Below, piece by piece: positions 1,436 through 62,878 of a stretch of 64,000 nt of DNA. The DNA is from Eledone cirrhosa. Taxonomy: Eukaryota. The position numbers were made by a program, and so were the translations under genes. Within the stretch, counting starts at the first letter, position 1. Every line of letters begins with the position of its first letter. The notes under the pieces are model-generated. The model was not told the DNA's origin. It saw only the letters and a list, made by a program, of their open reading frames with translations, and made no database searches. The DNA is taken from the NCBI GenBank assembly GCA_964016885.1, contig OZ024744.1, forward strand, positions 123,442,001 to 123,506,000. Direction: 5' to 3'.

Positions 1436-1606
1436 TATCATCATCATTTTACGTCCGCTTTTCCCTGCTTGCAAGGGTGGGACGGGAACTGATTCTGGCT
1501 TGATTTCTACAGCTGGATGCCATTTACAGTGTGGGCTGGGTGCTTTTTTTGCCGTGGCACCTCCACGACCACTTTGCAGTGGAATGATAGGGACCCCAGT
1601 CCCTAT
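1436..1606 (-). mobile_element. 3' half of a tRNA-derived SINE with (ATG)n tail, split by the LTR element 1607-4548
   Basis: Continuous with 4549-4699 across the CTAT duplication. An uninterrupted homologue lies at 24463-24770. Confidence 0.8.
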
Positions 1607-4548
1607 TATAACAGGGTGACTGAGGTTGTATGTACAATATTTATTTACGAAGATTGAGCTGAGTAGAGCTGAATAGCTGACATGCCAAGAGAGATGAAAC
1701 AATGAATTAAGGCTTTCAGAAGACACGGTCCACTGGCTGAAGTGTTGCCAGGCCGTGGTTAAGTTGTTGTGTTACATGTTGGCTAGTGATTTCACGGCGA
1801 AAGAATGTTAGGTGTTTACCTTTTCACAGACAGGAAGCGAGAAGTTGATTCTTCAAATTAACGCGGGAACTTTTCCCTCAGGGCGCGTAGAGATACATTC
1901 TCTTCTACTGCCGCTGATTGGCTGAGCTGAGCCAAATCACGCACAGAGAATGTATGTGAGCCCGCAGAATTTAGGTCACTACAATACCCCCCCCCCCCCC
2001 TCCCTCTAGACGATACAGATTATTGAATCAGCAGGAAAAAATGGTGAAAGAGCACATCAGTGGAAAAATAATTGACCAGAAGGATGCATGCAAGAAGAAA
2101 AATGAGGCGCTAAGGGCCGTGTTTAGCCGCTGTGTCAAATGACTAGCTGTTTTGTAGTTTATACGTGACCACGGAGGGTCTAACAGAAAACGGATAAAGT
2201 CTGACATGGGCGAAGTTGCTGTTCTTGCATTTGGCAGTCGGACGCCATGCTTTGCAGCACAGTTACGTCCCTTTACGGACTGAGTTCAAATCTCGTCGAG
2301 GTTAACTTTGCCTTTCATCCTTACGGGGTCGATAAAATAAAGTACCAGTAATACACTGGGATAATTGCTGGCCTTGTGCCAAAAGTAGAAACAATTAAAT
2401 GTTAATGGTAAGTGTTGTACCAGTATCTGTGGATGAAGCTATTATGGTAGTTTACCAGTGCTGGCAAGAAGATGATGGGTAGGCGAGAAAATGTCGGCCT
2501 CCCAGATGTATTGCCGAAAGTGCTAGGCAGCTAGGAAAAAATGGTTGGTTGCTTTGAAAAGAAAAAAGCAAGTTGAATCTGTAGGTGGGTAGTAGTTGCA
2601 GTGTAAATTCCATAATTCCGGCGAATCCACAGAAATGGTGGAAATGCTGACAAGTCCAGTTCCATTTGTTGTTTTCCCAGCGAGTCGGGTAAGGTAACAA
2701 GATGGAGGTTGTTATGGACGATGAGTGTGCAACGAGATGCGAAGCTGTTTGAATCCAACTGCAATTAGCAGTTCTCGTGTTGCGGTGCCTGTTTTAATCC
2801 AGGTGAATTAAGCTCTATGAGTCGCTAGCATGTTTTGGTACCTCCACCAGGTGAAAAGGGATCTCGCAGAACTTTACGACGTTTGAATATCATACACTAA
2901 GAACAACATGTTGGTGTGTGTCAAAGAAATATGTGTGCATGTGCAGGCATGTAATACAGCAAAGAATTGTGGGTGCAGTCATATATACAATGATAAAGAA
3001 AATGATACAGTCATATATACAATGTAATCAACTTAAAAGAAGAGGTCAAAGGAGCAAAGAAACGTGCTCGAACATAGTTATTAAAAAAAAGGTTCAAATG
3101 TTCAAAAATAAAGTTAACATGTATGTAAGCATATGACAGCAGGAAAGAAAGTGTGTCCTCCAGAGAATGTATGCAGGTGGTTTCTGGACTGTGGTACAAC
3201 GTGAAATTCCCAACCTCCGAAGGCGGTGGGATTTTCTCACAGGAAGAGTGTTGCAAAAATAAATTCTCTGTTTTGTTCTGATGGTTTTGGTTGTTGATAA
3301 AGCAAAGATGAATGAAGCTGTGTTGTTGTTGTCTCGAAGTTTTTTTCCATTCCCAGAAAAAATGAGTTGCGCAAAGTGCTAGAAATAACAGCCAAAGTTG
3401 ATGGGTCAAGAAGCCAGCGACCATAGAAATAAGCATTCTGAATAAATGCGCAGTTTTCAACGGCAAATTTACGTGGTAAATTTTTAAACCGGCAAATAGG
3501 AGAATATAGCTTAAGGCTGGAGAATCCTTGTCAAGAAACATTATCTATGGCGTGTGTTATCTCAGTGAGTCGAGATGTGTGCTCCCACACATGCCGAAAC
3601 AAGGTTAAAGTCAAGTTGAATAAAAAAAATATTTCTTTTGCGCGAGAAAATGATAGTGCAACAGGTCGTTGGTAGCCATTGTGAAAAATTTGTGTGTGAA
3701 CGTGATAATATGATGAAAAAGAAGGAAAGGCTATATTCACTTTGTATAACAAATATGGCGAGAGTTCGATTTTTTTTTTTTTGTGAAAGTGATGAAAAAG
3801 TAGCGAAAAAGGCTTAGTTGAATGAGTAAGCGAGCTGTGATGTTTATCAAAATTGACATGTTGAATATAAGACTACAGGAGTCCAAGTCTTTTTTTGAAT
3901 GTTTGTTGTGAGAAGAACGACGGATATATCCAGTGAGTGAAACTCATTTAAACGATGTAAACACGTGAGGTGAAGAACAACATGTTTTCTTGTTTGTTTG
4001 CTGCTGAGAAAAAGATTACTTATATTTTTCGTTGTAGACAGTTTCTGAGAAAAAAATTCATGTGGAATTTTGTTAGAGGAATTTTTTTCTTTTTTGAAAT
4101 ACTGCTAATTAATTTTCTTTTTTCCATATTCACACAACACCAGATACTATTTTTTTTTCTTGGGGTCACCAATTATAACAGGAGACTGGGTTGTATGTAC
4201 AATATTTATTTACGAAGATTGAGCTGAGTAGAGCTGAATAGCTGACATGCCAAGAGAGATGAAACAATGAATTAAGGCTTTCAGAAGACACGGTCCACTG
4301 GCTGAAGTGTTGCCAGGCCATGGTTAAGTTGTTGTGTTACATGTTGGCTAGTGATTTCACGACGAAAGAAAGTTAGGTGTTTACTTTTTCACAGACAGGA
4401 AGCGAGAGGCTGATTCTTCAAATCAACGCGGGAACTTTTCCCTCAGGGCGTGTAGCGATACATTCTCTTCTACTGGCGCTGATTGGCTGAGCTGAGCCAA
4501 ATCACGCACAGAGAATGTATGTGAGCTCGCGGAATGTAGGTCACTACA
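1607..4548 (-). mobile_element. Non-autonomous LTR retrotransposon N1 (LTRs 4174-4548 and 1607-1983, non-coding interior)
   Basis: Two ~375-bp direct repeats. TSD CTAT (1603-1606 / 4549-4552). PBS TGGTGACCCC at 4162-4171, G-rich PPT at ~1986-2005. No gag/pol motifs in the interior. Confidence 0.92.
2232..2400 (+). mobile_element. tRNA-derived SINE carrying the Nin/Deu conserved domain, inside N1
   Basis: B-box-like GAGTTCAAATCTC followed by CTTTGCCTTTCATCCTTACGGGGTCGATAAAATAAAGTACCAG, which resembles the Nin-domain consensus as recalled. Confidence 0.75.
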
Positions 4549-4699
4549 CTATCATCTCATTTCTACAGCTGAGTAAACTGGAGCAATGTGAAATAAAGTG
4601 TCTTGCTCAAAGAAACAACACATCACCTGCTCTGAGAATTGAATTCACAACCTTTCGATTGCAAGGCCAATGCTCTAACCACTAAGCCATGTGCCTCCA
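4549..4699 (-). mobile_element. 5' half (tRNA-like head and core) of the SINE split by N1
   Basis: Minus strand reads TGGCTTAGTGGTTAGAGCA (A box) ... GTGAATTCAATTC (B-box-like), then TTGAGCAAGACACTTTATTTCAC. Confidence 0.8.
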
Positions 4700-24462: not shown

Positions 24463-24770
24463 ACCCTATCATCATTCATCATCATTTCATTTTACGTCTG
24501 CTTTTCCCTGCTTGCAAGAGTGGGATGGGAACTGATTCTGGCTTGATTTCTACAGCTGGATGCCCTTCCTAACACTAACCTCATTTACAGTGAGTGCTGG
24601 GTGCTTTTTTGCCGTGGCACCTCCACGACCACTTTGCAGTGGAATGATAGGGACCCCAGTGCTATCATTTCATTTCTACAGCTGAGTAAACTGGAGCAAT
24701 GCGAAATAAAGTGTCTTGCTCAAGGAAACAACACATCACCCGGTCGGAGAATTGAACTCACAACCTTTTA
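24463..24770 (-). mobile_element. Copy of the same tRNA-derived SINE with the head truncated
   Basis: Colinear with 1436-1606 plus 4549-4650. Confidence 0.85.
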
Positions 24771-27305: not shown

Positions 27306-27507
27306 ATCATCATCATCATCACCGTTTTACGCTAGCATGGGTTAGACGGGTTGTCCTGTTGTGGGCAGTGTCCAGTTGGCTGACCTTGTCTTGCTCATAC
27401 AGGAACTGATTCTGGTTTGATTTCTACAGCTGGATGCCCTTCCTAACACCAACCTCATTTACAGTGAGTGCTGGGTGCTTTTTGTTATGACACCTACATG
27501 ACCACAT
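27306..27507 (-). mobile_element. 3' part of a related SINE ending in a satellite-like monomer
   Basis: (CAT)n tail, TTCTACAGCTGGATGCCCTTCCTAAC, then TTACAGTGAGTGCTGGGTGCTTTTTGTTATGACACCTACATGACCAC. Confidence 0.75.
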
Positions 27508-27624
27508 TTTTATATATTATATATTATTATTGTTATTGTTGATTATTAGAATCTCCATAAACAACCTTTCCCTAAATGTTTAAGGAGTCGTTTCCTCTCC
27601 TTCCTTTATTTGGTAATAAAAATT

Positions 27625-27760
27625 CATTCTGGACCCCATACAGTGGAGCTCCTCCACAAGATTGGAACACCGGTGGCCTCTCTGAGAAGGGAACCCCGCA
27701 AGGTTAGGTGGTTGTTGCAGCAGGTGTCACTGCCCATTGTCCACAGGGTTCAGCCCCTTT
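27625..27760 (+). mobile_element. CRE-like non-LTR element, C-terminal fragment
   Basis: GPHTVELLHKIG..REPRKVRWLLQQVSLPIVHR resembles the recalled CRE motif G..A..L..LG....GDPRE..WL.QRLS.A.QRGN. Confidence 0.5.
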
Positions 27761-27989
27761 ACTGCCACACCCTAGGCCCAGAGCCAATCATCTCCCCCTT
27801 CCCATTCTTCTGTGACACTAGAGTCCTTGCCATTCCCTCCCTTTCCTGTCTTTTCTCTTTTTCTCTTTATAATTTCTTATTCTACATTCCATTCTTCTCA
27901 ATCTAAATTTTCTTTATTTCTTTTTCTATTAAACTCTATTTATTTGATATATTCCAGAAATAAAATTACAGATTATTTTTTCTAGTCTC

Positions 27990-28130
27990 TGGTGTTCGAG
28001 ACGTTTGGCGGAATTGGGCGACTGACAGTGAAGTTTTTGTCTTCACTGGCGACTCACCTTACTGAGGTGTCAAGTGATGCCCGTGAGGGTGGGTGGTTAT
28101 TTCAGTGTCTTAGCCTCACCTTACAGAGGT
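27990..28130 (+). mobile_element. Second CRE-like restriction-like-endonuclease C-terminal fragment
   Basis: FETFGGIGRLTVKFLSSLATHLTEVSSDAREGGWLFQCLSLTLQR. Confidence 0.6.
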
Positions 28131-31100
28131 GTCAAGTGATTCCTGTGAGGGCGCTTGGTTATTTCAGTGCCTTACCCTCGCCATCACCCGTGGTAATGCT
28201 GTGAGTGTGTAGGCTTGCCTGAAAGGGTGTAGTTAACCCCCCAAGGTGTGAGATGTGACAGATTAAAACACCTGGTGGTGAATTGTTCCCCCACTCTTTT
28301 TTATTTTTATTTCCTTTATCATTTTTGTTCATCAATCTATATTATTGTGTCATTATACATGGTTTAGACATATTTGTCCTTCTGAATGAATTGCGAGCAA
28401 TTTTTGGTGTTATTTACGCATTTGTTCTGTTATTTAAAACATATTTGCCACGTTATTCTACTGTAAATCTTAATAAAATGATTAAAATTTTAATAATAAG
28501 AATAGCTTTACCTGTCATCCCTACAGAGCTTCAATAAACAAAATTGTCAATTCTCCCTGTCTAACAGGGAGATCTCCCACCCACCTCAAAGTGTGATAAT
28601 GGGTCTAGCTTTCATTATGTAAAATCTCCCCATTTTGCCTCATTTCTCCCTGTTTTGGTGCACTTTTTTCATGGTACTCTCAGTTTGGGTATTTAGAGGT
28701 TAACAGGTTTGAATAAAACAAAGTACCAGTTACTTACTAGGGTTGACTTAATCAACTTTTTGATGTGACACCTATATGACCACTTTACAGTGTGTAATGG
28801 GTATTTTTGTTGTGACACTTACATGACCACTTTACAATGTGTACTGCGTAATTGTTGTCATGACACCTACATGACCACTTTAGAGTGTGTACTGGGCCCT
28901 TTTTGTCATGACACCTGCATGACCACTTTACAATGTGTACTTGGTAATTTTTGTTGTGACACCTACATGACCACTTTATGGTGTTCAATGTAGGCTTTTT
29001 GTTGTGACACCTACATCACCACTTTACAGTGCGTACTGGGTACTTTTTGTTGTGACACCTACATGACCACTTTACAGTGAGTACTGGGTGCTTTTTGTTG
29101 TGACACCTACATGACGACTTTACAGTGTGTACTGGGACCTTTTTGTCATGACACCTGCATGACCACTTTATAGTGTGCAATGTAGGCTTTTTGTTGTGAC
29201 ACCTACATGACCATTTTTTCAGTGTGTACTGGATACTTTTAGTTGTGACACCTACATGGCCACTTTACAGTGTGTACTGAGTACTTTTTCTCATTACACC
29301 TATATGATGACTTTACAGTGTGTATTGGGTACTTTATGTCGTGACACTTACATTACCATTTTACAGTGTGTACTGAGTACGATATGTCATAGAACCTACA
29401 TGACCACTTTACAGTGTGTACTGGGTACATGTTGTTGTGATACACCAACATGACCTCTCTATAGTGTGGGGTGGGTGATTTTGGTGGTAACACCTACATA
29501 ATCAGTTTACAGTGTGTACTGTGTACTTTTTGTTGTGACACCTACATGACCACTTTACAGTGTGTACTGTGTACTTTTTGTTGTGACACCTACATGACTA
29601 CAGTGTGGGCTGGGTACTTTTTGTCATGACACCTACACAACCCCTTTACAATGTGGATTGGGTGCTTTTTGTCATGACACCCATGTGAACACTTTACTGT
29701 GAGGAATGGGTGATTTTTGTTGTGACGCCTACATGAACATTTTATAGTGTCGGCTGGGTGCTTTTTGTTATGACACCTACATCACCACTTCACAGTGTGT
29801 ACTGCGCCCTTTTTGTCATGACACTTGCATGACTACTTTATAGTGTGCAATTTGGGCTTTTTGTTGTGACACCTACATGACCACTTTACAGTGAGTACTG
29901 CGTGCTTTTTGTCATAACACCTACATGACAACTTTACTGTGTATACTGGGTACTTTGTATTGTGACACCTACATGACTACAGTGTGGACTGGGTACTTTA
30001 TGTCATTACACCTACACAACCCCTTTAAAATGTGGACTGGGTGCTTTTTGTCATGACACCCTTGTGAACAATTTACTGTGAGCACTGGATGCTTTTTGTT
30101 GTGACGCCTACATGAGCACTATATATTATCGGCTGGGTACTTTTTGTTGCGCCACCTGCATGACCTCTTCACAATGTGGACTGGGCCCTTTTTGTCATGA
30201 CACCTGCATGACCACATTATAGTGTGCAATCTGGGCTTTTTGTTGTGACACCTATATGACCACTTTACAGTGTGCACTGAGTACTTTTTGTCATGATACC
30301 TATATGACAACTTTACAGTGTGGATTGGGTACTTTATGTTGTGACACCTACATGTCTACAGTGTGAACTGGGTGCCTTTTGTCATGACACCTACACAACC
30401 CCTTTACAATTTGGACTGGGTGCTTTTTGTCATGACACCCATATGAACACTTTACTGTGAGAACTGGGTGCTTTTTATTGTGACGCCTACATGAAAACCT
30501 TATAGTGTCGGCTGGGTGCTTTTTGTTGTGACACCTAGATGACTACTTTACAGTATGTACTGGGTACTTTTTGTTGTGTGGACTGGGTCCTTTTTGTCAT
30601 GACAACTGCATGACCACTTTATAGTGTGCAATGTAGGCTTTCTTTGTGACAACTACATGACCACTTTACAGTGAGTACTGGGTGCTTTTTGTTGTGACAT
30701 CTACATGACGACTTTACAGTGTATACTGGGTATTTTTGTCATGATACCTACATGACCCTTTTACAGAGTGTACTGAGTACTTTTTCTCATGACACGTATA
30801 TGACCACTTTACAGTGTGGATTGTGTACTTCATGTCGTGACACCTACATGACCATTTTACGGTGTGTACTGAGTACTTTATGTCGACACCTACATGACCA
30901 CTTTACAGTGTATAATGGGTACTTTTAGTTGTGACATCTACATGACCATTTTACAGTGTGTACTGGGTACTTTTTGTTGTAGCACACCAACATGACCACT
31001 TTAGAGTGTAGGGTGGGTGATTTTTGTAGTGACACTAACATCACCAGTTTACAGTGTGTACTGTGTACTTTTTGTTGTGACACATCAATAACCACTTTAC

Positions 31101-32239
31101 AGCGTGTACTAGGTACTTTTTGTTGTGACGCATACATGATCACTTTACAGGATATACTGGGTACTTTGTATTATGCCACCTACATGACTACAGTGTTTGA
31201 CAGGTTACTTTTTGTCATGGCACCTACACAACGCCTTTACAATGTGGACTGGGTGCTTTTTGTCATGACACCCATGTGAACAATTTACTGTGAGCACTGG
31301 GTGCTTTTTGTTGTGATGCTACATGAACACTCCATAGTGTGGGCTGGGTGCTTTTTGTTGTGACACCTACATGACGACTTTACAGTGTGGACTGGGTCCT
31401 TTTTGTCATGACACATGCATGACCACTTTATAGTGTGCAATCTGGGCTTTTTGTTGTGACACCTCCATGACAACTTTACAGTGTGGACAGGATCCCTTTT
31501 GTTGTAACACCTACATGACGACTTTACAGTGTGTACTGGGTACTTTAATTATGACACCTACATAACCACTTTACGGTGTGTGCTGAGTACTTTATGTCAT
31601 GACACCGACAAGACCACTTTACAGTGTGGATTGGGTAATTTATGTCGTGACACCTACATGACCATTATACAGTGTGTACTGAGTACTTTATGTCATGGTA
31701 CCTACATGACCGCTTTACAGTGTGTGATGGGTACTTTTTGTGGTGACACCTACATGACCACTTTACAGTGTGTACTCTGTACTTTTTGTCATGACACCTA
31801 CATGACCACTTTACAGTGTGTACTGAGTACCTTTTGTCATGACACCTATATGACGACCTTACAGTGTGGATTGTGTACTTTTGTTGTGACACCTACATGA
31901 CCAATTTACAGTGTGTACTGAGTACTTTATGTCATGACACCTACATGACCAGACCACTTTACAATGTGTACTGGGTACTTTTAGTTGTGACACCTACATG
32001 ACCACTTTACAGTGTGTACTGGGTGCTTTTTATGTGACACCTACGTGACCACTTTAGAGTCTGTACCGAGTACTTTTTGTCATGACACCTATATGACGAT
32101 TTTAAGGTGTGGATTGGGTACTTTTATTGTGACATCTACATGACCACTTTACAGTGTGTACTCGGTACTTTTTGTTGTGTCACACCAACATGACCACTTT
32201 ATATTGTGGGGTGGGTGACTTTTGTGGTGTCATCTACAT

Positions 32240-33083
32240 CAGTGGTCGCCAACCTTTCTAAAGCCGAGGAACCCTCTAAATATTTTGAATTCTTCACGGA
32301 ACCTATACAATACAAAACTTTTCAAAAAAAAATAATAAAGTATTTATTTATTTTAGTGAACTTACGTTGTGAGAACAGCGAACTGACCCAGTCCCTCGGC
32401 TGAGAGACCTCGCTGAACTGAAGTTTTCAGTTTAAAGTTATGCTGTCACCGACCAACATTTACTTGTTTGTGATTGGTCAATTTCTAAGTTCAATTAGTG
32501 TATTATCAGTAGTAGTCAAATTCTCGGAATTCAGAAAACTATGTCTTTCCAAGAAGAAATTATTGTGTAAAGTGCTCAGGTGCACTACAACACGTCTAAG
32601 GTGTATGTATAGTACATAAAATAATACACAAATGTCAGGGAAGTGAATAGTGTATGAGTCATGGTATACATGTGTGTATGTGTATGGAGGGGGAACATTA
32701 CGTGTAGTGTTGGCGGATCTTGGGAAGCATGGAGGCCTTAAAGGACGCAGTGTCTCGACAGCTAACAATCGATGCAGGCAGTTTGTTCCATGCTTCAACA
32801 ACTCTGAGCGTGAAAAAATGTTTCCGAAAGTCATGGGAACTGTGCTGTTTTCTGATTTGTGGGCATGTCCACGTGTGTTAGACACATGGAAATCAAAAAA
32901 TTGATGCAAATTGATGTGGAATTGAAAGTATTCAATTTCCACGAATCTCAGAAGAGTGTTTTTCTGCTAATTCAAGTGAGAAACTGAAAGTAGTGTTTTC
33001 CACGAATTGGAGTGGTGAACCTGTCTACACTACAATAGAACTCGTTCATTTATACATTGCACCTTTGTCATTTTCTTTGCACC
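32240..33083. mobile_element. hAT (Buster-type) non-autonomous element, right end lost, carrying a LINE 3' fragment
   Basis: Starts CAGTGGTCGCCAA and is near-identical to 40499-41248. Confidence 0.85.
32550..33030 (-). mobile_element. CR1/L2-like LINE 3' end nested in the hAT element
   Basis: With one frameshift it reads NTRGHAHK..RKHFFTLRVVEAWNKLP..V..TASFK, typical of the CR1-group ORF2 end. Confidence 0.75.
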
Positions 33084-36000
33084 TAAATGACCACTTTACA
33101 GTGTGTACTGAGTACTTTTTGTAATGAAACCTATATGACCACTTTACAGTGTGGATTGGGTAATTTATGTCGTTACACATACATGACCATTTTACAGTGT
33201 GTACCGCGTACTTTAAGACATGACACCTACATGACCACTTTACAATGCATACTGAGTACTTTTAGTTGTGACACCTACATGACCACTTTACAGTATGTAC
33301 AGGCTACCTTTTGTTGTGACTCACCAACATGACCACTTTATAGTGTGGGTTGGGTGATTTTTGTGGTGACACCTACATGACCGCTTTACAGCGTGTGCTG
33401 GGTACTTTTTGTGGTGACACCTACATGACCACTTTACAGTGTGGATTGGGTACTTTTTGTCGCGACACCTGCATGACCACTTTACAGTGTGTTATGTGTA
33501 CTTTTTGTCATGACACCTATATGACGACTTTACAGTGTGGATTGCGTACTTTTTGTTATGACACCTACTTGACCATTTCACGGTGTGTACTGAGTACTTT
33601 ATGTCATGACAACTGCATGACCACTTTACAGTGAGTACTGGGTGCTTTTCTTTGTGACACCTACATGACGACGTTACAGTAAGTAGTGATTGCTTTTTGT
33701 AGTGACACCTACATGACGACGTTACAGTGGGGATAGGACGCCTTTTGTTGTGACACATACATGACGACTTTATAGTGTTTACTCTGTACTTTTTGTCATG
33801 ACACCTACATGACTACCTTACAGTGTGTACTGAGTAATGTTTGTCATGACACCTATATGACGAAATTACAGTGTGGATTGGGTACTTTTTATTATGACAT
33901 CTACATGACCACTTTACAGTGTGTACTTGGTACTTTTTGTTGTGACACACCAACATAACCACTTTATAGTGTGGGGTGGGTGATTTTTGTGGAGACACCT
34001 ACATGACTACTTTATAGTGTGGGGTGGGTGCTTTTTGTTGTGACACCTACATGACCACTTTACAGTGTGTACTGGGTACTTTTTGCATGACACCAACATG
34101 ACCACTTTACAGTGTGTACCAAGTACTTTTTGTCATGACACCTATATGACGACTTTACAGTGTGGATTGGGCACTTTTTGTTGTGACACCTACATGACCA
34201 TTTTACAGTGTGTACTGAGTACTTTATGTCATGACACCTACATGACCACTTTACAGTGTGTACTGGGTACTTTTAGTTGTGACACCTACGTGACCACTTT
34301 AGAGTGTGTTAAGAGTACCTTTTGTCATGACACCTATATGACGACTTTATGGTGTGGATTGGGTAATTTTAGTTGTGACATCTACATGACCACGTGTACT
34401 GGGTACTTTTTGCTGTGACACACCAACATGACCACTTTATAGTGTGCGGTGGGTGATTTTTGTGGTGACACCTACATGACCAGTTTACAGTGTGTACTGT
34501 GTACTTTTTGTTGTGACACCTACATGACCAATTTACAGTGTGTACTGGGAACTTTTTGTTGTGACACCTACATGACCACTTTGCAGTGTGTACTGGGTAC
34601 TTTTTGTTGTAACACCTACATACCACTTTAGAGTGTATACTTGGTACTTTGTATTGTGTCACCTATATGACTACAGAGTGGACTGGGTACATTTTGCATG
34701 ACACCCTCACAACCCCTTGACAATGTGGACTGGGTATTTTTTGTCATGACACGCATGTGAACACTTTACTGTGAGGACTGGCTGCTTTTTATTGTGGCGC
34801 ATACATGAACACTTTATAGTGTAGGCTGGGTGATTTTTGTTGTGACACCTACATGACGTCGTTACAGTGAGTAGTGATTGCTTTTTGTAGTGACACCTAC
34901 ATGACGACGTTACAGTATGTACAGGCTACCTTTTGTTGTGACTCACCAACATGACCACTTTATAGTGTGGGTTGGGTGATTTTTGTGGTGACACCTACAT
35001 GACCGCTTTACAGCGTGTGCTGGGTACTTTTTGTGGTGACACCTACATGACCACTTTACAGTGTGGATTGGGTACTTTTTGTCGCGACACCTGCATGACC
35101 ACTTTACAGTATGTTATGTGTACTTTTTGTCATGACACCTATATGACGACTTTACAGTGTGGATTGCGTACTTTATGTCATGACACCAACATGACACTTT
35201 ACAGTGTGTATCGAGTACTTTTTGTCATGATACCTATATGACGATTTTACAGTATGGATTGGGTACTTTTTGTTGTGACACCTACATGACCAGTTTAGAG
35301 TGTGTACTGGGAACTTTTTGTTGTGACACCTACATGACCACTTTGCAGTGTGTACTGGGTACTTTGTATTGTGACACCTACATGACTACAGCGTGGACTG
35401 GGTACTTTTTGTCATGACAACCTCACAACCCCTTTACAATGTGGACTGGGTGTTTTTTGTTATGACACCCATGTGAACACTTTACTGTGAGGACTGGGTG
35501 CTTTTTATTGTGACGCATACATGAACACTTTATAGTGTCGGCTGGGTGCTTTTTGTTGTGACACCTACATGACCATTTCACATTGTGGACTGGGCGCTTT
35601 TTGCATGACACCTACATGACGACGTTACAGTGAGTACTGAGTGCTTTTTGTCATGACACCTACATGACCACATTACAGTGTGTACTGAGTACTTTTTGTC
35701 ATGAAACCTATATGACAAAATCAGAGTGTGGATTGGGTACTTTTTTTTGTTACACCTACATGACGTTTTTTCAGTGTGTACTGAGTACTTTATGTCATGA
35801 CACCTATATGACAAGTTTACAGTGTATAGTGGATAAATTTAGTTGTGACACCTACATGACCATTTTACAGTGAGTACTGGGTACTTTTTATTGTGACACC
35901 TACATGACTACTTTACAGTGTGTACTTGGCACTTTTTCTTGTGACATCTACATGACCACTTTAAAGTCTGGACTCTGTAATTATTGTTGTGATATCTACA

Positions 36001-37642
36001 TTTCCGCTTTACAGTGTAGACTGGGTACTTTTTGTTGTGACATCTACATGACAACTTTACAGTGTGTACTGTGTTCTTTTTGTTGTGATACCTACATGTC
36101 AACTTTACAGTGTGGACTGTGTACTTTTTATGTGACACCTGCATGGCTACTTTACAGTGGGTATTGAGTATTTTTGTTGTGACTCTTACAAGACCACTTT
36201 AATTGTGTACTGGGTACTTTTTATTGTGATACCTACATGACCACCTTACAGTGTGTACTAGGTAATTTTTGTTGTCACTCCGACAGGATCACCTTACAGT
36301 GTTTACAGGGTCTTTTTGTCATGACACCTACATGACTGCTTTACAGTGTGTACTGGGCACTTTTTATAACCACCTTACAATGTGTACTGGGTAATTTTTG
36401 TTGTGACACCTACATGACCAATTTACAGTGTTGACAGGATGCCGTTTGTTGTGCCACCTACATGACGATTTTACAGGGTGTACTGTGTACTTTTTGTCAT
36501 TTCACCTATATGACGACTCTACAGTGTGGATTGTGTACTTTTTGTCATGACACCTACATGACCACTTTACAGTGTGTACTGTGTACTTTTTGTCATTTCA
36601 CCTATATGACGACTGTACAGTGTGTACTGGGTACTTTTAGTTGTGACACCTATATAACAACTTTACAGGGTGTACTGAGTACTTTTTGTCTTGACACTTA
36701 TATGACGACTTTACAGTGTGGATTGGGTATATTTAGTTGTGACACCTACATGACCACTTTAGAGTGTGTACTGGGTACTTTTTGTTGTGACACATACATC
36801 ACCAGTTTACATTGTGGACTGGATAATTTTGTTGCTACAGCTACATGACCACCTTACAGTGTGGACGGGGTACATTTAGTTGTGACACCTATATGACCAT
36901 TTTACCGTGTGTACTGGGTACTTTTTGTTGTGACACCTACTTGACCAGCTTACAGTGTAGACTGGGTAATTTTTGTTTTACACCTACATGACCACCTTAC
37001 ACTGTGTACTGGGTACTTTTTGTTTTGACACCTACATTACGACTTTACAGTGTGTACTGGGTACTTTTTGTAATGACACCTATATGACCACTTTACAGTG
37101 TGTACTGAGTACCTTTTGTCATGACCCTTGTAATGACGACTTTACAGTGTGTACTGAGTACTTTTTGTCATGACACCTACATGACCACTTTACAGTGTGG
37201 ACAGGGTATTTTAGTTGTGACAACTATATACTACTTTACAGTGTGTACTGAGTACTTTTTGTCATGACACCTATATGACGACTTTACAGTGTTGATTGGG
37301 TACTTTATATTGTGACACCTACATGACTACATTGTGAACCGGGTACTTTAGGTCATGACACCTACGCAAATCATTTACAATGTGGACTGGGTGCTTTTTG
37401 TCATGTCACACATGTGAACACTTTAATGTGAGGACTGGTTGCTTTTTGTTGTGACGCCTACATGAACAATTTATAGTGCCGGCTGGGTGCTTTTTGTTGT
37501 GACACCTAAATGACCACTTTACAGTATGTACTGGGTACTTTTTGTTGCGACACCTACATGACCACTTCACAGTGTGGACTGGGCCCTTTTTATCATGACA
37601 CCTGCATGACCACTTTATAGTGTGTACTGGGTGCTTTTCGTT

Positions 37643-39295
37643 GTGACACCTACATAACCACTTTACAGGGTGTACGGAGTACTTTTTGTCATGACACTTA
37701 TAAGACGACTTTACAGTGTGGATTAGGTATATTTAGTTGTAACACCTACATGACTACTTTACAGTGTGTACTGGGTACCTTTTGTTGTGACAACTACATA
37801 GCAACTTTACATTGTGTACTGGATACTTTTTGTTGTAACACCTACATCACTATTTTACAGTGTGTACTGGGTAATTTTTGTCGTGACACCTACATGACAA
37901 CCTTACAGTGTGTACTGGGTGCTTTCTGTTGTCACACCTACAAGACCACCTTACAGTGTGTAGTGGGCACTTTTTGTTGTGACACCTACATGACTTCTTT
38001 ACAGTGTGTACTGGGTACCCTTTGTTGCGACGCCTACATGAACACTTTATAGTGTCGGCTGGGTACTTTTTGTTGTCACACCTACATGACCATTTTATAG
38101 TGTGTACTGAGTACTTTATGTCATGACACCTACAAGACCTCTTTACAGTTTGTACTGGGTACGTTTAGTTGTGACACCAACATGACCAATTTACACTGTG
38201 TACTGGGTACTGTTTCAGGTGACACACCTACATGAACTCTTTACAGTGTGTGCTGGGTACTTTTTGTGGTGACACCTACATGACCACTTTACAGTGTGAA
38301 CCGGGTACTTCTTGACATGACACCTGCATGAATACTTTACAGTGTGTATTGGGCACTTTTTTCTGTGACATCTACATGACCACTTTACAGTGTTTTCTGT
38401 GTACTTTTTTTGTTGTGACACCTACATGACCACCTTACAGTGTAGACTGGGTACTTTTTGTGGTGACACCTACATAACCACTTTACAGGGTGTACGGAGT
38501 ACTTTTTGTCATGACACTTATAAGACGACTTTACAGTGTGGATTAGGTATATTTAGTTGTAACACCTACATGACTACTTTACAGTGTGTACTGGGTACCT
38601 TTTGTTGTGACAACTACATAGCAACTTTACATTGTGTACTGGATACTTTTTGTTGTAACACCTACATCACTATTTTACAGTGTGTACTGGGTAATTTTTG
38701 TCGTGACACCTACATGACAACCTTACAGTGTGTACTGGGTGCTTTCTGTTGTCACACCTACAAGACCACCTTACAGTGTGTAGTGGGCACTTTTTGTTGT
38801 GACACCTACATGACTTCTTTACAGTGTGTACTGGGTACCCTTTGTTGCGACGCCTACATGAACACTTTATAGTGTCGGCTGGGTACTTTTTGTTGTCACA
38901 CCTACATGACCATTTTATAGTGTGTACTGAGTACTTTATGTCATGACACCTACAAGACCTCTTTACAGTTTGTACTGGGTACGTTTAGTTGTGACACCAA
39001 CATGACCAATTTACACTGTGTACTGGGTACTGTTTCAGGTGACACACCTACATGAACTCTTTACAGTGTGTGCTGGGTACTTTTTGTGGTGACACCTACA
39101 TGACCACTTTACAGTGTGAACCGGGTACTTCTTGACATGACACCTGCATGAATACTTTACAGTGTGTATTGGGCACTTTTTTCTGTGACATCTACATGAC
39201 CACTTTACAGTGTTTTCTGTGTACTTTTTTTGTTGTGACACCTACATGACCACCTTACAGTGTAGACTGGGTACTTTTTGTGGTGACACCTACAT
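37643..39295. repeat. Apparently perfect 820-bp tandem duplication within the satellite
   Basis: Identical ORFs at 38215 and 39035. No difference seen by eye at offset 820. Confidence 0.9.
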
Positions 39296-40498
39296 GACCA
39301 CTTTACAGTCTGGACTGGGTACTTCTTGTTGAGACACCTGACTGACCACTTTAAAGTGTGTACTGGGTACTTTTTTGTGACACCTACACAACCCTTTACA
39401 ATGTGGAGGGGGTAATTTTTGTCATGACACCCATGTGAACACTTTACTGTGAAGACTGGGTGCTTTTTGTGGTGACACCTACATGACCACTGCACAGTGT
39501 GTACTGGGGCCATTTTGTCATGACTTCTGCATGACCACTTCATATTGTACAATGTGGGCTTTTTGTTGTGACACCTACATGAACACTTTACAGTGAGTAC
39601 TGGGTGCTTTTTGTTTTGACATCTACATGACCACTTTACAGTGAGTACTGGGTGCGTTTTGTTGTGACACATACATGATGACGTTAGAGTGTGGACAGGA
39701 TGTCTTTTTTGTTACACCTACATGACGACTTTATAGTGTGTACTAGGTACTTTTTGTTGTGACACCTACATGACCACTTTACAGTGTGAACTGAGTATTT
39801 TATGTCATGACACCTACATGACCACTTTACAGTGTGTTCTGGGTACTTTTAGTTGTGACACCTATATGACCACTTCACAGAGTGTACTTGGTACCTTTTG
39901 TTGTGATACACCATAAAGTACACTTTATAGTGTGGGGTGGGTGATTTTTGTGGTGACACTTACATGACCAATTTATAGTGTGTACTGGGTGCTTTTTTTT
40001 TTGTCACTCCGACAGGATCACTTTTCAGCGTGTACTGGGTACTTTTTGTCATAAAAACTACATGACTACTTTACTTGGTGTGTACTTGGCACTTTTTCTT
40101 GTGACATCTACATGACCACTTTAAAGTCTGGACTCGGTAATTATTGTTGTGACCCCTACATTTCTACTTTAGAGTGTATACTGGGTACTTTTTGTTGTGA
40201 CACCTACATGACCACTTTACAGTGTGTACTGTGTACTTTTTGTTGTGACACCTACATGTCAACTTTACAGTGTGTACTGTGTACTTTTTATGTGACACCT
40301 GCATGTCTACTTTACAGTGGGTACTGGGTACTTTTTGTTGTGATACCTACATGACCACTTTACAGTTTGTACTGGGTACGTTTTTTGTATGACACCCAAC
40401 CTGACTACTTTAGAGTGGATACTGGGTACTTTTTGTTGTGACACCTACATGGCCACTTTACAGTATGTACTGGGTACTTTTTATTGTGTCACCTACAT

Positions 40499-41248
40499 CA
40501 CTGGTCGCCAACCTTTCTAAAACCGAGGAACCCTCTAAATATTTTGAATTCTTCACGGAACCTATACAATACAAAACTTTTCAAAAAAAAATAATAAAGT
40601 ATTTATTCATTTTAGTGAACTTACGTTGTGAGAACAGCGAACTGACCCAGTCCCTCGGCTGAGAGACCTCGCTGAACTGAAGTTTTCAGTTTAAAGTTAT
40701 GCTGTCACCGACCAACATTTACTTGTTTGTGATTGGTCAATTTCTAAGTTCAATTAGTGTATTATCAGTAGTAGTCAAATTCTCGGAATTCAGAAAACTA
40801 TGTCTTTCCAAGAAAGAAATTATTGTGTAAAGTGCTCAGGTGCACTACAACTCGTCAAAGGTGTATGTATAGTACATAAAATAATACACAAATGTCAGGG
40901 AAGTGAATAGTGTATGAGTCATGGTATATATGTGTGTATGTGTATGGAGGGGGAACATTAGGTGTAGTGTTTGCGGATCTTGGGAAGCATGGAGTCCTTA
41001 AAGGATGCAGTGTCTCGACAGCTAACAACCGATACAGGCAGTTTGTTCCATGCTTCAGCAACTCTGAGCGTGGAAAAATGTTTCAGAAAGTCATGGGAAC
41101 TGTGCTGTTTTTTGATTTGTGGGCATTTTCATTTATACATTGCACCTTTGTCATTTTCTTTGCACCTTTTTCAGAAAACCCAAAATATTAATGGCAATGT
41201 AAATATTTTTTTTTAAGGGTTTCGCGGAACCCATTTTGGCGACCACTG
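40499..41248. mobile_element. Complete hAT (Buster-type) MITE-like element
   Basis: TIRs CA(C)TGGTCGCCAA / TTGGCGACCACTG. 8-bp TSD ACCTACAT/ACCTACTT with central TA (nnnTAnnn). Confidence 0.9.
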
Positions 41249-44200
41249 ACCTACTTGACCACCTTACAGTGTGTATTAGGTACTTTTTGTTGTGACACAT
41301 AGATGATCACTTTACAGTGTGTACTGGGTTCTTTTTGTTGTGATACGTTCAGGACCACTTTACAATGTGTACTGGGTAGTTTGTGACACCTACATGAGCA
41401 CCTCACAGTGTGTACTAGGTACTTTTTGTTATCACTCCGACAGGATCACTTTACAGTGTGTACTGGGTACTTTTTGTCATTTCACCTATATGACGACTGT
41501 ACAGTGTGTACTGTGTACTTTATGTCATGACACCTACATGACCACTTTACAATGTGTACTTGGTAATTTTAGTTGTGACACCTACATAACCACTTTACAG
41601 GTTGTACTGAGTACTTTTTGTCATGACACTTATATGACGAATTTACAGTGTGTACTGGGTACTTTTTGTTGTGACACACCAACACTATCACTTTATAGTG
41701 TGGGGTGGGTGATTTTTGTGGTGACAACTACATGACCACTTTACAGTGTGTACTGGGTACTTTTTGTTGTGACAGCTACATCACCAGTTTACATTGTGGA
41801 CTGGGTAATTTTGTAGCGACAGCTACATTACCACCTTACAGTGTGGACAGGATGCCTTTTGTTGTGACACCTACATGACGACTTTACAGTGTGTGCTGGG
41901 TACTTTTTGTCATGAACACTTTACAGTGTGGACAGGGTACATTTAGTTGTGACACCTATATGACCATTTTACAGTGTAGACTGGGTAATTTTTGTTGTGA
42001 CACCCACATGACCAGTTTACAGTGTAGACTGGGTAATTTTTGTTTGACACCTACATGACGACTTTACAGTGTGGTCTGGGTACTTTTTGTTGTGACACCT
42101 ACATGACCACCTTACAGTGTGTACTGAGTACTTTTTCTTGTGACACCTACATGACCACTTCACAGTGTTGACAGGGTACTTTTAGTTGTGACAACATACC
42201 ACTTTACAGTGTGTACTGAGTACTTTTTGTCATGACACCAATATGACCACTTTACAGTGTGGATTGGGTTTTTTATGTTGTGACACCTACATGACCATTT
42301 TATAGTGTGTATTGGGTACTTTTAGTTGTGACACCTACATGACTACTTTACAGTGTGTACTGGGTACTTTTAGTTGTGACACCTATATGACCACTTTACA
42401 GTGTGTACTGGGTACTTTTTGTCATGACACCTACATGACCACTTTATAGTGTGGACTGAGCACTTTTTGTTGTGACAACTTCATGACTACTTTACAGTGT
42501 GTACTGGATACATTTTGTTTTGACACCTACATGACTACTTTAAAGTAAGCACTGGGTACGCTTTGTTGCGACGCCTACATGAACACTTTATAGTGTCGGC
42601 TGGGTGCTTTTTGTTGTGATACCTACATGTCCACTGCACAGTGTGTATTGGGGCCTTTTTGTCATGACTCCTGCATGACCACTTCATAGTGTACAATCAG
42701 GGCTTTTTGTTGTGACACCTACATGACCACTTTACAGTGTGTACTGGGTACTTTTTGTTGTGACACCTACATGACCACTTTACAGTGTGTACTGAGTATT
42801 TTGTGTCATGACACCTACATGACCACTTTACAGTGTGTACTAGGTACTTTTTGTTGTGACACCTACATGAACACTTTACAGTGTGGATTAGGTACTTTAT
42901 GTTGTGACACCTACATGACCATTTTAGTGTATAGACTGGATACTTTTTGTTGTGACACCTACATGACCATTTTACATTGTGTACTGGGTACTTTTTGTTG
43001 TGACACTCACATGACCACCTTACAGTGTAGACTGGGTACTTTTTGTTGTGACACCTACATGAACACTTTAGAGTTTGAACTGGGTGCTTTTTGTCATTAC
43101 ACCCATATGAACACTTTACTGTGAGGACTGGGTGCTTTTTGTTGTGACACCTACATGTCCACTGCACAGTGTGTACTGTGGCCTTTTTGTCATGACTCCT
43201 GCATGACCACTTCATAGTGCACAATGTGGGCTTTTTGTTGTGAAACCTACATGACCAGTTTACAGTGAGTACTGGGTGCGTTTTGTTGTGACACATACAT
43301 GATGATGTTACAGCGTGGACAGGATGCCTTTCTTTTGTTACACCTACATGATGAATTTACAGTGTGTACTGGGTACTTTTTGTTGTGACACCTACATGAC
43401 CACTTTACAGTGTGTACTGGGTACTTTTTGTTGAGACACCTACATGACCACTTTACAGTGTGTACTGGGTACTTTTTGTTGTGACACCTACATGACCACT
43501 TTACAGTGTGTACTGGGTACTTTTTGTAATGACACCTGCATGCCCACTTTACAGTGTGTACTGGGTACTTTTTGTTGTGACACCTACTTGACCACTTTAC
43601 AGTGTGTTCTGGTTACTTATTGTTGCGACACGTACATGACGACTTTACAGTGTGGATTGGGTACTTTTTGTTGTTACACCTACACGACCACCTTACAGTG
43701 GGTACTGGGTTGCTTTTGTTGTTACACCTACATGGCCACTTTACATTATGTACTGGTTAATTTGTGTGTGACACCTATATGACTACTTTACAGTGGGTAC
43801 TGGTTACTTTTTCTTGTCATACCTGCATGACCACTTTACAGTGTGTACTGGGTATGTTCAGTTGTGACAGCTACATGGCCACTTTATTGTGTGTACTGGG
43901 TACTTTTTTGTTACACCTACATGACCACTTTACAGTGTGTACTGGACAATTTTTGTTGTGACATCTACTTGACAACTTTACAGTCTCGACTGCGTACTTT
44001 TTGTTGCGACACATACATAACCACTTTAGAGTGTAGACTGGGTACTTTTTGTTGTGACACCTACATGACCACCTTACAGTGTGGACTGGGCCCTTTTTGT
44101 CATAACACCTGCATAATCACTTTATAGTGTGCAATGTGGGCTTTTTGTTGTGACACCTACGTGACTACTTTACAGTTTATACTGGGTACGTGTAGTTGTG

Positions 44201-44643
44201 ACACCTACATAACCTCTTTACAGTGTGTACTGGGTACATTTTGTCGTGACACACCTAAATGACCAGTTTTTAGTGTGTACTAGGTACTTTTTGTCATGAC
44301 TCCTACATGACTACTTTACAGTGTGTACTGGGTACTTTTTGTTGTGACACTTACATTACCACTTTACAGTGTAGAATGGGTACTTTTTGTTTTCGCACCT
44401 ACAGGACCACCTTACCATGGGTACGGGGTACTTTTTGTTGTTACACCTACATGATAACTTTAGAGTGTGTACTGTGTAATTTGTGTCATGACAACTACAT
44501 GACCACTTTACAGTGTGTACTGTGTACATGTTGTTGTGCCACAGCTACATGTCCACTTTATAGTGTGTGCTGGGTACTTTTTGTCATGAAACACACATGA
44601 GCGCTTTACAGTCTGTACTGGGTACTTTTTCTCATGACACCTA

Positions 44644-46831
44644 TGTAGCAGGAGTTGCCTCCCTTGTTGTGACACTCACATCCCTAATAGATTAACGCTC
44701 TCTAGACAGGAAGTAGAACCCTTTCTCTAACTTCCTGTCAGAACCCTATAAAACTAACAACGTTAAGCTATCTCGCTCTCATTCGCCTTTTCGGTCAGGC
44801 GCCTCCTGGCCTTCGCCAGGAGTCTTCACTCAGGTGTGTGTAACCCTGGCAACCAAGCGGTAACTAACAACTTTGTTTCATTCTTTCATCTATTCTTTGA
44901 CATGTCAACTATACTGTTCTATATATATCCACAAATTGTTTATTAAAAATTATACACACAAACCACTTCTCCTTGTTACATTCATACAACCCAGTATTTC
45001 GCTATAATTGGTGAACCCGACGTGATACGAACACGCAGCCGTTCATTGTTCTAAGTGGTGACCCCGAAAAAAGAAAAAAATAGCAGAATCTGGTGTTGTG
45101 TGAGTAACATTACGAATACACAGCAAAATTTTATTGACAAACTATGAAAATACACAACCAAGAAACGAACACACCACGCACATGTGAAATTCGCGTTCAG
45201 ACAGACTTTTTCTCTCACGCATCAACTAACTGTCGCATTTCACGATATATATATATATATGTTTCTCGTTTCTTACAACGAACACTTTAAAAACAAACAA
45301 ACAAACAAAAATAAATTTGATTTTTTTTTTTTTAAACATTACAACAGGAACATTTATTTTCGATGAACCTCAACCATTGCCTTTTTTTCATCGTTTTCTT
45401 CATCGTTCAAGTTTTTTTTCAAAGTTCACACCAGATATTAAAAAAAAAAATTGAACTCGCCATATTTGTTATGCTAAGTGAAGCCTTTCTTTCTTTTTCA
45501 TCATTGTCACTTTCACACACATTTTTTCAAAATGGCTGCCAACGACCTGTTGCACTATCATTTTCTCGCGCATTAGAAATATTATTTTTTCAACTTAACC
45601 TTGTTTTGGAACGTGTAGGATTCTCGATTCACTGAGATAGCCGCACGCCAGGGATAATGTTTCTCGCCAAGGATTCTCCAGCCTTAAGCTATATTCTCCT
45701 ATTTGCCGGTTTAAAAATTTACCACGTAAATTTGCCGCTGAAAACTGCGCATTTATTCAGAATGCTTATTTCTTTGGTCGCTGGCCTCTTGACCCTTCCA
45801 GGTCAACGCATTCTCAACATCGACCATCAACTTCGGCTGTTATTTCTAGCACTTTGCGCAACTCATTTTTTCTGAAAAAAATATTTTTACTGTGAACATC
45901 GAATACGCTCACTCCGCGAGACAACAACATCAACAGCAACACAGCTTCGTCAACAACCAAAACCAGCAGAACAAGCAAGAGAATTTATTTTTGCAGCACT
46001 CTTCCTGTGAGAAAATCCATTCGGAGGTTGGAAATTTCACGATATACCACAGAACAGAAACCACCTGCATACATTCTCTGGAACACACTTTCTTTCCTGC
46101 TGTCATGTGATTGCACACCTGTGAAATATATTTTGTACATTTGAACTTTGATCTCTTCTCTTACTTTCATGACATTGTATCTTTGGGTGATGGATAGATA
46201 GATGTCCAGTCGTTCTCTGGCCAAGAGCGGTTGGCTACCTTGATATCCATCATTGATTTTTGCAAACATTATTATATTTTTTCATAATTTTCATGCCTGT
46301 TACAACATTCTCGCCAACTTGCTACATACATATTTCATGCGATTTTTATATTTTAAAAATCTGGCGGGAAGTAATGTAGCAGGAGTTGCCTCCCTTGTTG
46401 TGACACTCACATCCCCAATAGATTAACGCTCTCTAGACAGGAAGTAGAACCCTTTCTGTAACTTTGGTCAGAACCCTATAAAACTAACAACGTTAAGCTA
46501 TCTCGCTCTCATTCGCCTTTTCGGTCAGGCGCGTCCTGGCCTTCGCCAGGAGTTTTCACTCAGGTGTGTGTAACCCTGGCAACCAAGCGGTAACTAATAA
46601 CTTTGTTTCATTCTTTCATCTATTCTTTGACATGTCAACTATACTGTTCTATATATATCCACAAATTGTTTATTAAAAATTATACACACAAACCACTTCT
46701 CCTTGTTACATTCATACAACCCAGTATTTCGCTATAATTGGTGAACCCGACGTGATACGAACACGCAGCCGTTCATTGTTATAAGTGGTGACCCCAAAAA
46801 AAGAAAAAACACACAAGCGTATTTTGCTATA
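44644..46831 (+). mobile_element. Non-autonomous LTR retrotransposon N3 in the satellite, with tRNA-extended LTRs
   Basis: Core LTRs 44644-45006 and 46375-46736. TSD CCTA (44640-44643 / 46832-46835). PPT at 46361-46374. Interior homologous to N2. Confidence 0.92.
45009..45040 (-). other. 32-nt copy of the tRNA-Trp 3' end including CCA (second copy at 46739-46770)
   Basis: Minus strand GGCTGCGTGTTCGTATCACGTCGGGTTCACCA versus recalled metazoan tRNA-Trp GGCTGCGTGTTCGAATCACGTCGGGGTCACCA. Confidence 0.85.
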
Positions 46832-54300: not shown

Positions 54301-54858
54301 CAGCATAACAGATGACTCTGTAGCAGTTGCCTCCCTTGTTGTGACGCACAACCCCAATAGATTAACACCATCTAGACAGGAAGTAGAACCCTTTCTGTAA
54401 CTTCCGGTCAGAACCCTATAAAACTAACAACTTTAAGTTCTCACTCTCTCATTCGCCTTTTCGGTCAGGCGCCTCCTGGCTTTCGCCAGGAGTCTTTATC
54501 CAGGCGCCTTCTGCCAGCCACGTTCGTTTGGCAATCAAACGGTAACTAATAACTTTGCTTCATTCTTTCATTTATTTCTTTGACATGTTAACTATACTGT
54601 TCTATATATATCCATGATTGTTAATTAAATATTATACACACAAACAATGTCTATTTTGTTACATTCATACAACCCAGTTTTCCGCTATAACTCTATGGGG
54701 GTATCTTTCACGCAATAGACTGGCCAAATACTACAGGAGGCTCCTGTATCCACGAGGAAACCCCTTCCGGACATTAGGTCCTTAATGAAGAAATGGCGGT
54801 TTGGTGGCTTTATGTTGAGGTCAGCTGTCCCCATCAGCGGACCTCTTAGGCGTTTCCC
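51342..54858 (-). pseudogene. pol: Element E pol (PR-RT-RH-IN), frameshifted and split by a solo LTR
   Basis: [51 protein letters not shown] and TRSGRRVHWP. Confidence 0.93.
54319..54689 (+). mobile_element. Solo LTR (N3 type) inserted in the protease of E
   Basis: TGTAGCAG...GCTATA with TSD ACTC (54315-54318 / 54690-54693). Similar to 44644-45006. Confidence 0.92.
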
Positions 54859-62700: not shown

Positions 62701-62878
62701 TTTACTACACTAGCATGGGTTGGACAGATTGTACTATTTGAGGCAAGTCAGGTCAGATGACCGTGTCTTACTCATATAGATGTTTCTCGCTTGGTTTCTA
62801 CAAATAAATGCCCATCCTAACGCCAACTATATTTACAGTCTGTACTGCGTACTTTTTGCAATGACACCTTCATGACCA

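What the first reader, a model, noticed from the sequence alone, without database searches (positions are those of the whole stretch)
1520..1590. The 48-bp satellite monomer matches an internal segment of the local SINE
Seen: SINE copies at 1524-1581, 24585-24641 and 27459-27503 contain TTACAGTG(tggg/agtg)CTGGGTGCTTTTT(T)GCCGTGGCACCTCCACGACCACTTTGCAGTG. This aligns end to end with one satellite monomer and is bounded by the micro-repeat TTACAGTG...TTGCAGTG. The 27.5-kb copy is intermediate, reading GTTATGACACCTACATGACCAC like the satellite. Inside the array, SINE flank sequence runs directly into monomers (ATGCCCATCCTAACGCCAAC-TATATTTACAG at ~57378) and monomers exit into SINE sequence (TTACAGTGGAATGAT at ~59004). 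Inference: the satellite arose by tandem amplification of this SINE segment, and source, intermediate and product all sit in one window.
Basis: partly seen in the sequence, partly recalled or inferred. Interest (0 to 1): 0.72.

Follow-up and report, generated by a model that had tools for sequence, protein, structure and literature searches.

The report
LINE tail, not SINE, seeds satellite
The 48-base satellite here matches a short repeat in the tail of a jumping gene (a LINE) that the local SINE also carries, so SINE and satellite are likely cousins rather than parent and child, and finished arrays likely also get copied into other, unrelated copies of that tail nearby.

Summary
The match is real: the SINE unit is 80-82% identical to the satellite consensus, against at most 66% in 2000 shuffles. 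But the segment is not SINE-specific. It is a variable tandem unit (1, 2, 3 up to hundreds) just past the stop codon of an RTE-like LINE. The SINE shares that tail with the youngest LINE subfamily (49-bp, CpG-rich unit). The satellite matches older subfamilies (48 bp, about 90%), and a SINE-plus-satellite clade is rejected (p-AU 0.0002). The 'SINE flank' inside the array is an old LINE tail. The 'SINE exit' occurs in 2 of 7 block copies and does not run on into SINE. The 27.5-kb 'intermediate' is a young tail with a satellite-type half unit. Genome-wide, 18 of 30 sampled arrays start at their own LINE tail. One three-base variant sits in arrays whose host tails are unrelated (p-AU 2e-10) and crowds into 2 Mb of one chromosome, which suggests arrays also move between copies; evidence for this in the window's own array is weak. 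The scan noted the LINE-tail origin before elsewhere in this genome, and copy-to-copy spread once in another genome.

The parts
1437..1606 (-). 3' half of a young SINE copy: (ATG)n end, LINE-shared tail (18-bp deletion), one 50-bp unit at 1524-1573 plus the 9-bp terminal repeat to 1581
1607..4548 (.). LTR-type element that splits this SINE (repeats 1607-1983 and 4174-4548, 95% alike; CTAT duplicated at 1603-1606 and 4549-4552); described only
4549..4690 (-). 5' half (tRNA-like head and body) of the same SINE copy
24478..24768 (-). second young SINE copy, 5' end cut off; one 49-bp unit at 24585-24633
27308..27508 (-). young-type long LINE tail (27310-27456) plus one hybrid unit (young first half, satellite-type second half), cut after one unit; chimera 1.25 kb from the array start
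27509..28754 (.). spacer of decayed dispersed repeats between the chimera and the array; not one clean insertion
28757..63831 (-). 48-bp satellite: 8 blocks, 22.7 kb, about 473 units in the window, interrupted by other elements; runs on to about 81.1 kb past the window start, with an inverted block at 81.9-83.0 kb. LINE sense is the minus strand
57072..57811 (-). duplicated block 1: locus-specific 189-bp spacer, old-subfamily LINE tail (57255-57391), one unit, 350-bp inserted repeat
62501..63241 (-). duplicated block 3 (old LINE tail 62685-62821); four more copies lie beyond the window at 74.1, 75.7, 80.0 and 80.5 kb

Best explanation
The 48-bp monomer matches a variable tandem unit in the 3' end of an RTE-like LINE family; this array likely grew from an inserted copy of an older subfamily, the SINE likely took its related 49-bp unit from a younger subfamily's tail, and arrays likely also pass between LINE copies by DNA-level recombination. 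Steps: (1) shown: units lie between the LINE's ORF end and its (ATG)n tail, usually two per copy. (2) Shown: dispersed copies hold 1 to more than 100 units between these ends. (3) Inferred: retrotransposition scatters the seeds, and unequal exchange or slippage lengthens some. (4) Inferred: here tail, spacer and units were then duplicated as blocks, seven times. (5) Inferred: the one or two units in any LINE or SINE copy give homology through which a nearby array is copied in by gene conversion or break repair. This would make chimeras such as the 27.5-kb copy and regional variant sharing. No function is shown; the simplest view is neutral turnover.
For: LINE identity: RVT_1 100 bits (cut-off 29.6), an endonuclease hit at E 3e-5 below its cut-off, and a PHD finger in linked copies; in L285 the stop codon comes before the unit. 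Of 30 loci found with the 27.5-kb copy, 14 exit into LINE sequence (1-21 units), 11 into the SINE head (1-2 units) and 5 are cut. Of 25 copies picked by ORF alone, 14 carry two units, 4 one, and 7 could not be scored. Old-tail copies carry satellite-type units, and L117, L127, L134, L135 and L138 exit into the ORF end. Window monomers average 84% identity to the old-LINE consensus and 75% to the SINE consensus. In the unit tree SINE and young LINE form one side (93/76, not starred) and SINE plus satellite is rejected, p-AU 0.0002. CpG per unit is 1.5-1.9 in SINE and young LINE, and 0.07-0.40 in six large arrays; one site splits TG 66, CA 35, CG 4, TA 3 among 108 scored of 325 monomers. Of 30 loci taken from an exact 35-mer list, 18 arrays start at a LINE tail, 10 do not, 2 ran off the stretch; 8 exit into an ORF end. 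Array-heading tails are scattered over the tail tree, at least 5 origins forced. For transfer: the variant TGTTG has 703 exact matches, only 44 of them on C1-C24 (7 loci), against 12 loci in the first 2.06 Mb of C25; it is in 0 of 95 short copies and 0 of 11 sampled C28 arrays. Its 10 host tails are not a clade (p-AU 2.5e-10, at least 6 forced changes). Array divergence follows chromosome (Mantel r 0.31, 0 of 5000) and not tail distance (r 0.09, 1269 of 5000). L229 is a one-unit LINE with about 32 satellite units set into it and a scar at one end.
Against: Old-LINE copies were found with a query that held one satellite monomer, which favours satellite-like units. The unit tree has 49 columns and an unsettled bootstrap. 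The chromosome effect among pattern-picked arrays rests on C25: 7 of 5000 with it, 1584 of 5000 without; C28 arrays were picked for likeness to the window. For this array, transfer is weakly supported: 199 of 263 recurrent variant 20-mers occur in no other fetched locus, one tested 24-mer occurs at no other C28 locus, and no donor for the spacer-plus-tail block exists elsewhere. 603 of the 703 TGTTG matches were not listed. TGTTG also occurs on six other chromosomes and could recur by slippage on the neighbouring GTTGT. 10 of 30 arrays have no tail. No intact LINE and no outgroup genome were examined, so direction rests on internal evidence. Contigs confirm 27479-27640 but do not bridge the chimeric joint.
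Confidence: 0.72

Rival explanations
1. Growth in place only: each array expanded independently from its own LINE copy, with no exchange between loci, and shared variants are recurrent mutations.
For: Some arrays keep locus-specific or subfamily-type units (L039, L040, L136, L156). The window array is rich in private variants. The size continuum needs nothing more.
Against: Satellite-type interiors lie between subfamily-type first or last units and ends (L229, L223, L240, L243, L226/7). The three-base variant crosses unrelated tails and clusters on C25.
Confidence: 0.15
2. One reading: the satellite arose by tandem amplification of the SINE's internal segment, with the 27.5-kb copy as intermediate.
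For: 80-82% end-to-end match. SINE copies with two units exist. Two loci have a SINE head joined to 9-11 satellite-type units (L156, L226/7), and one has a SINE tail heading an array (L243).
Against: SINE plus satellite rejected. The SINE is young (96-97%) while window monomers are 88% identical to their own consensus. Of 20 fetched loci with a satellite-like unit end before the SINE body (24 in the genome), 19 are one-unit young copies with point changes. L156 has an old LINE tail at its other end. The in-array flank is a LINE tail and the exit is inconsistent.
Confidence: 0.05
3. Reverse direction: a pre-existing satellite was captured into the LINE 3' end and then spread by it.
For: Satellite-type arrays do appear to enter LINE copies, and 10 of 30 arrays lack a tail.
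Against: Each LINE subfamily has its own unit type. Arrays are CpG-poor relative to element units. In another organism's run, contigs with the shared tail core run on into a related half unit.
Confidence: 0.05
4. The chimeras form at the RNA stage: reverse transcriptase starts on a LINE or SINE tail and switches to a satellite transcript.
For: It explains a young tail followed by satellite-type units, as at 27.5 kb.
Against: It does not predict clustering of a variant within 2 Mb of one chromosome, or variant arrays with no tail (4 of 16).
Confidence: 0.03

Closest known systems
Satellites from tandem repeats inside Ogre LTR retrotransposons: PisTR-A of pea (passage in review PMC9659126) and nine Lathyrus sativus satellites (PMC7004042, abstract only)
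   Same: A short tandem array carried inside a dispersed retrotransposon (the 3'UTR for PisTR-A) occasionally expands into long arrays.
   Different: Here the carrier is a non-LTR LINE, a SINE shares the unit, and arrays appear to move between copies of different subfamilies.
SINE-derived satellites (sSat1-3) of squamates, PMC10702118 (parts 1, 3 and 4 of 5 read)
   Same: Arrays of a few to hundreds of units with an extended terminal unit that runs to the element's end; many loci; long arrays converge on one variant.
   Different: There the unit (70-290 nt) is a duplicated piece of the SINE. Here the unit is 48 bp, is already tandem in the LINE, and the arrays carry LINE rather than SINE ends.
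[quoted passage not shown]
   Same: A satellite enters pre-existing homologous sites along one chromosome, with one homologous and one variable junction; interlocus conversion or circular DNA is proposed.
   Different: There the landing sites are clusters of an unrelated satellite, and synteny across species shows the empty state. Here the sites are retrotransposon tails related to the satellite, and no empty allele was seen.
Common cetacean satellite (L1 3' end), chicken HinfI (CR1), Drosophila 18HT (HeT-A/TART 3'UTR), from passages and table in PMC9659126
   Same: Satellite related to the 3' end of a non-LTR element.
   Different: As listed in the review these are sequence resemblances; here a size series inside dispersed copies is seen.

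Membership tests
tRNA-derived SINE | Short, dispersed, multi-copy | tested here: met
   About 330 bp; 40 scored of 2727 candidates, on many contigs
tRNA-derived SINE | tRNA-related head with A and B boxes | tested here: inconclusive
   Box-like motifs seen by eye against recalled consensus; Rfam tRNA 23.8 bits, E 0.75, below the 29-bit cut-off; ARAGORN none
tRNA-derived SINE | 3' end shared with a partner LINE | tested here: met
   Same tail and unit in LINE-exit and SINE-exit copies
tRNA-derived SINE | Target-site duplications | tested here: inconclusive
   3 of 25 full copies give a candidate; many sit in (AT)n runs
tRNA-derived SINE | Pol III transcription | not testable with these tools
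   No stranded RNA reads of this organism were listed
RTE-clade LINE | AP-type endonuclease plus reverse transcriptase | tested here: met
   Exo_endo_phos_2 (E 3e-5, below cut-off) and RVT_1 in one open frame of L296; RVT_1 100 bits in L287; homologues with the same domains
RTE-clade LINE | Microsatellite 3' end | tested here: met
   (ATG)n end; called common in RTE by PMC9115989 (passage)
RTE-clade LINE | Placement with named RTE elements in an RT tree; single intact ORF | not tested
   No reference set was used; longest open frame 543 aa. The clade name rests on recalled motifs, hence 'RTE-like'
SINE-derived satellite (sSat) | Unit derives from the SINE, terminal unit extends to a SINE end | tested here: not met
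   SINE plus satellite rejected; in-array flank is an old LINE tail
Ogre-type retrotransposon-borne satellite | Tandem array in the non-coding 3' part of dispersed copies, occasionally expanded | tested here: met
Ogre-type retrotransposon-borne satellite | Carrier is an LTR element | tested here: not met
   The carrier is a non-LTR LINE; works like it, not a member
Rsp-like interlocus spread | Same variant in unrelated hosts on one chromosome, with scarred junctions | tested here: met
   (C25; weak for the window's own array)
Rsp-like interlocus spread | Empty orthologous site in a relative | not testable with these tools
   No related genome is held

The most novel reading that the evidence does not exclude
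Retrotransposon tails act as both seed and landing pad. A LINE scatters one- or two-unit seeds across the genome, and mature satellite arrays then colonise those seeds, of any subfamily and even SINEs, by short-range DNA exchange. This makes regional satellite dialects that track chromosome position instead of element ancestry.
Probability: 0.55. Interest if true: 0.62.

Novelty: new variant of a known kind. Interest (0 to 1): 0.45.

Why it matters
How a satellite reaches many loci is usually inferred after the traces are gone. Here each array keeps a subfamily-diagnostic LINE tail, which labels the host site apart from the array. That makes 'grew in place' versus 'copied in' testable locus by locus with a second genome. 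It also warns that a satellite matching a SINE may only share a LINE-derived tail with it.

Tried and rejected
Hairpin or special fold as the cause of slippage: z-scores -0.96 to +0.12 for units and dimers as RNA or DNA, none beyond shuffles. tRNA gene or Rfam family: nothing at gathering score. 27509-28754 as one clean insertion that would rejoin the 27.5-kb copy to the array: only partial matches of 74-87%, and the phase is off by about 19 bp. A donor locus for the spacer block: none. Shared multi-unit haplotypes between arrays: 4 of 119 same-chromosome and 2 of 661 other pairs, mostly runs of the TGTTG unit, so not independent evidence. The GTGTAC variant as a C28 marker: set aside, as those arrays were picked for it and a related half unit with it occurs in another run. 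A first tail regex was too strict and was replaced. Rows dropped before trees: one search kept 109 rows (tails under 115 bp, duplicate block copies and surplus young copies removed); one search used 45 chosen rows; one search used 48 sampled units. Runs X7, X8 and X13 had 1-11 contigs laid and were not used. Literature: eight searches listed no paper on this satellite; PMC13282606 has 0 hits for 'satellite'. Subscription papers, Repbase/Dfam entries and supplements were not seen.

Full report
Observation. The units at 1.5 and 24.6 kb align end to end with the consensus of 325 cut monomers at 80.0% and 81.6%; none of 2000 shuffles comes near (max 66%). The window is G000:C28:123,442,001-123,506,000 of a 3.0-Gb animal genome. 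Its repeats look cephalopod-like to me; that is recalled and was not tested.

The SINE. It is about 330 bp on the minus strand, with a tRNA-like head, a body, one 49-bp unit and a tail ending in (ATG)n; the 39 other places among the 40 scored are 96-97% identical. The 1.5-kb copy is split by an LTR-type element with a 4-bp duplication, and its head lies at 4549-4690.

The unit belongs to a LINE. Searching with the 27.5-kb copy gave 30 loci: 14 run from the units into LINE sequence, 11 into the SINE head, and 5 are cut. Linked copies encode an endonuclease-like domain, reverse transcriptase and a PHD finger, and in L285 the stop codon precedes the unit. Of 25 copies picked by ORF only, 14 carry a dimer, 4 one unit, and 7 were not scored (read from segment lengths, since the printed count overcounts). 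The SINE's unit joins the first half of one dimer unit to the second half of the other, which suggests collapse of the dimer (inference). Copies with 14 and 21 young-type units between tail and ORF end exist (L040, L039).

Which lineage made the array. The tail inside the array finds older LINE copies, about 80% identical, whose units already read like the satellite and number 1 to about 30. Window monomers are on average 84% like the old-LINE consensus and 75% like the SINE consensus. In a 48-unit tree SINE groups with young LINE, satellite mixes with old LINE, and SINE plus satellite is rejected (p-AU 0.0002). Caveats: 49 columns, and the old copies were found with a query holding one monomer. 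CpG loss points the same way.

The entry at 57.4 kb is an old LINE tail inside a block of spacer, tail and units that occurs seven times, only in this array. The exit GGAATGAT is in 2 of 7 copies and is followed by spacer, not SINE. The 27.5-kb copy has a tail nested among young copies and a unit that is young in its first half and satellite-type in its second (92% to old LINE, 84% to SINE). It is best read as a chimera at the array's edge. Such a pairing is not unique: L032 and some of 20 fetched loci, out of 81 matches to the young-tail pattern, also show it or belong to intermediate subfamilies. An intermediate-subfamily origin is less likely given the tail, but is not excluded.

Genome-wide. 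One exact 35-mer has 942 matches, control 0. Of 30 loci taken from the first 100 listed, 18 arrays begin at a LINE tail, 10 do not, 2 could not be judged, and 8 exit into an ORF end. Other arrays that start at their own tail run 4 to about 84 kb on C28, the longest inferred from their two ends only. These tails are spread over the subfamily tree, so many separate insertions host arrays.

Exchange between loci. The variant TGTTG (three changes) is in no short copy of 95 and no C28 array of 11, but in 7 of 10 sampled C25 arrays and one C1 array. Genome-wide it has 703 matches, 44 on C1-C24 at 7 loci and 56 at 12 loci within the first 2.06 Mb of C25; 603 were not listed. Of 16 further carrier loci, 11 have a tail, 4 none and 1 ran off. 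Ten carrier tails are not a clade (p-AU 2.5e-10), and the flanks of eight carrier arrays share only common repeats and, for one pair, another tandem repeat. L229 reads as a one-unit LINE with about 32 satellite units set into it; L223, L240, L243, L156 and L226/7 are similar mosaics. Against: without C25 the chromosome effect disappears, and the window's array is mostly private in its variants, so for this array growth and block duplication in place dominate.

Known cases. It works like the Ogre-borne satellites (PMC7004042, abstract; PMC9659126, passages) with a LINE as carrier, resembles squamate sSats in anatomy (PMC10702118, parts 1, 3, 4) but fails their defining SINE origin, and its spread resembles Rsp-like entering 1.688 clusters (PMC7403614, passages). 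Eight searches listed no paper on this satellite; repeat databases and supplements were not seen. Earlier scan notes report the LINE-tail origin at other arrays of this genome and read it as growth in place; one reports copy-to-copy spread of a different unit in another genome. I saw these after forming my reading; they are not independent support.

Verdict. Real homology, wrong parent. A new variant of a known route, made more interesting by evidence that arrays colonise unrelated retrotransposon tails regionally. Interest 0.45.

Noticed in passing
G000:C28:123,626,000-123,662,800 (L073, L074, L230, L231), about 120 kb past the window end: A second satellite, about 36.8 kb with periods 83 and 90 bp, whose unit is 73-85% like a piece of the same LINE family's ORF end.
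   Followed up: partly
window 1607-4548: LTR-type element with 95%-identical ends and a 4-bp duplication, inserted in the middle of a young SINE copy.
   Followed up: partly
L061, about 71.9-72.5 kb from the window start: A young LINE copy inserted into the array in the opposite orientation.
   Followed up: no
window 32240-33079 and 40502-41248: Two related insertions at the same monomer position; the second has inverted ends like a DNA transposon and the first is cut, implying a multi-kb duplication within the array.
   Followed up: no
window 57449-57792, 59390-59733, 62879-63222; also 6158-6508 and 10773-11123: A 350-bp repeat sits in the first monomer of four of the seven block copies and has 73% relatives at 6.2 and 10.8 kb.
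   Followed up: no
L001-L030: The SINE very often lies in (AT)n runs, as do LINE tails, hinting at a target preference.
   Followed up: partly
L285, L287, L301: The LINE protein has a PHD finger after the reverse transcriptase; many homologues share it.
   Followed up: no
window 28053-28179 and 59012-59200; G000:C25:19.4-23.8 Mb: The spacer in the duplicated block and the 62-bp tandem at 28.05 kb are pieces of one old dispersed repeat; related pieces and one satellite variant cluster in C25:19-24 Mb, possibly a large repeated unit.
   Followed up: partly
L222 and L224 upstream flanks (C25:1.08 and 1.61 Mb): Both lie beside another tandem repeat of 61-bp period, 95% alike between the loci.
   Followed up: no
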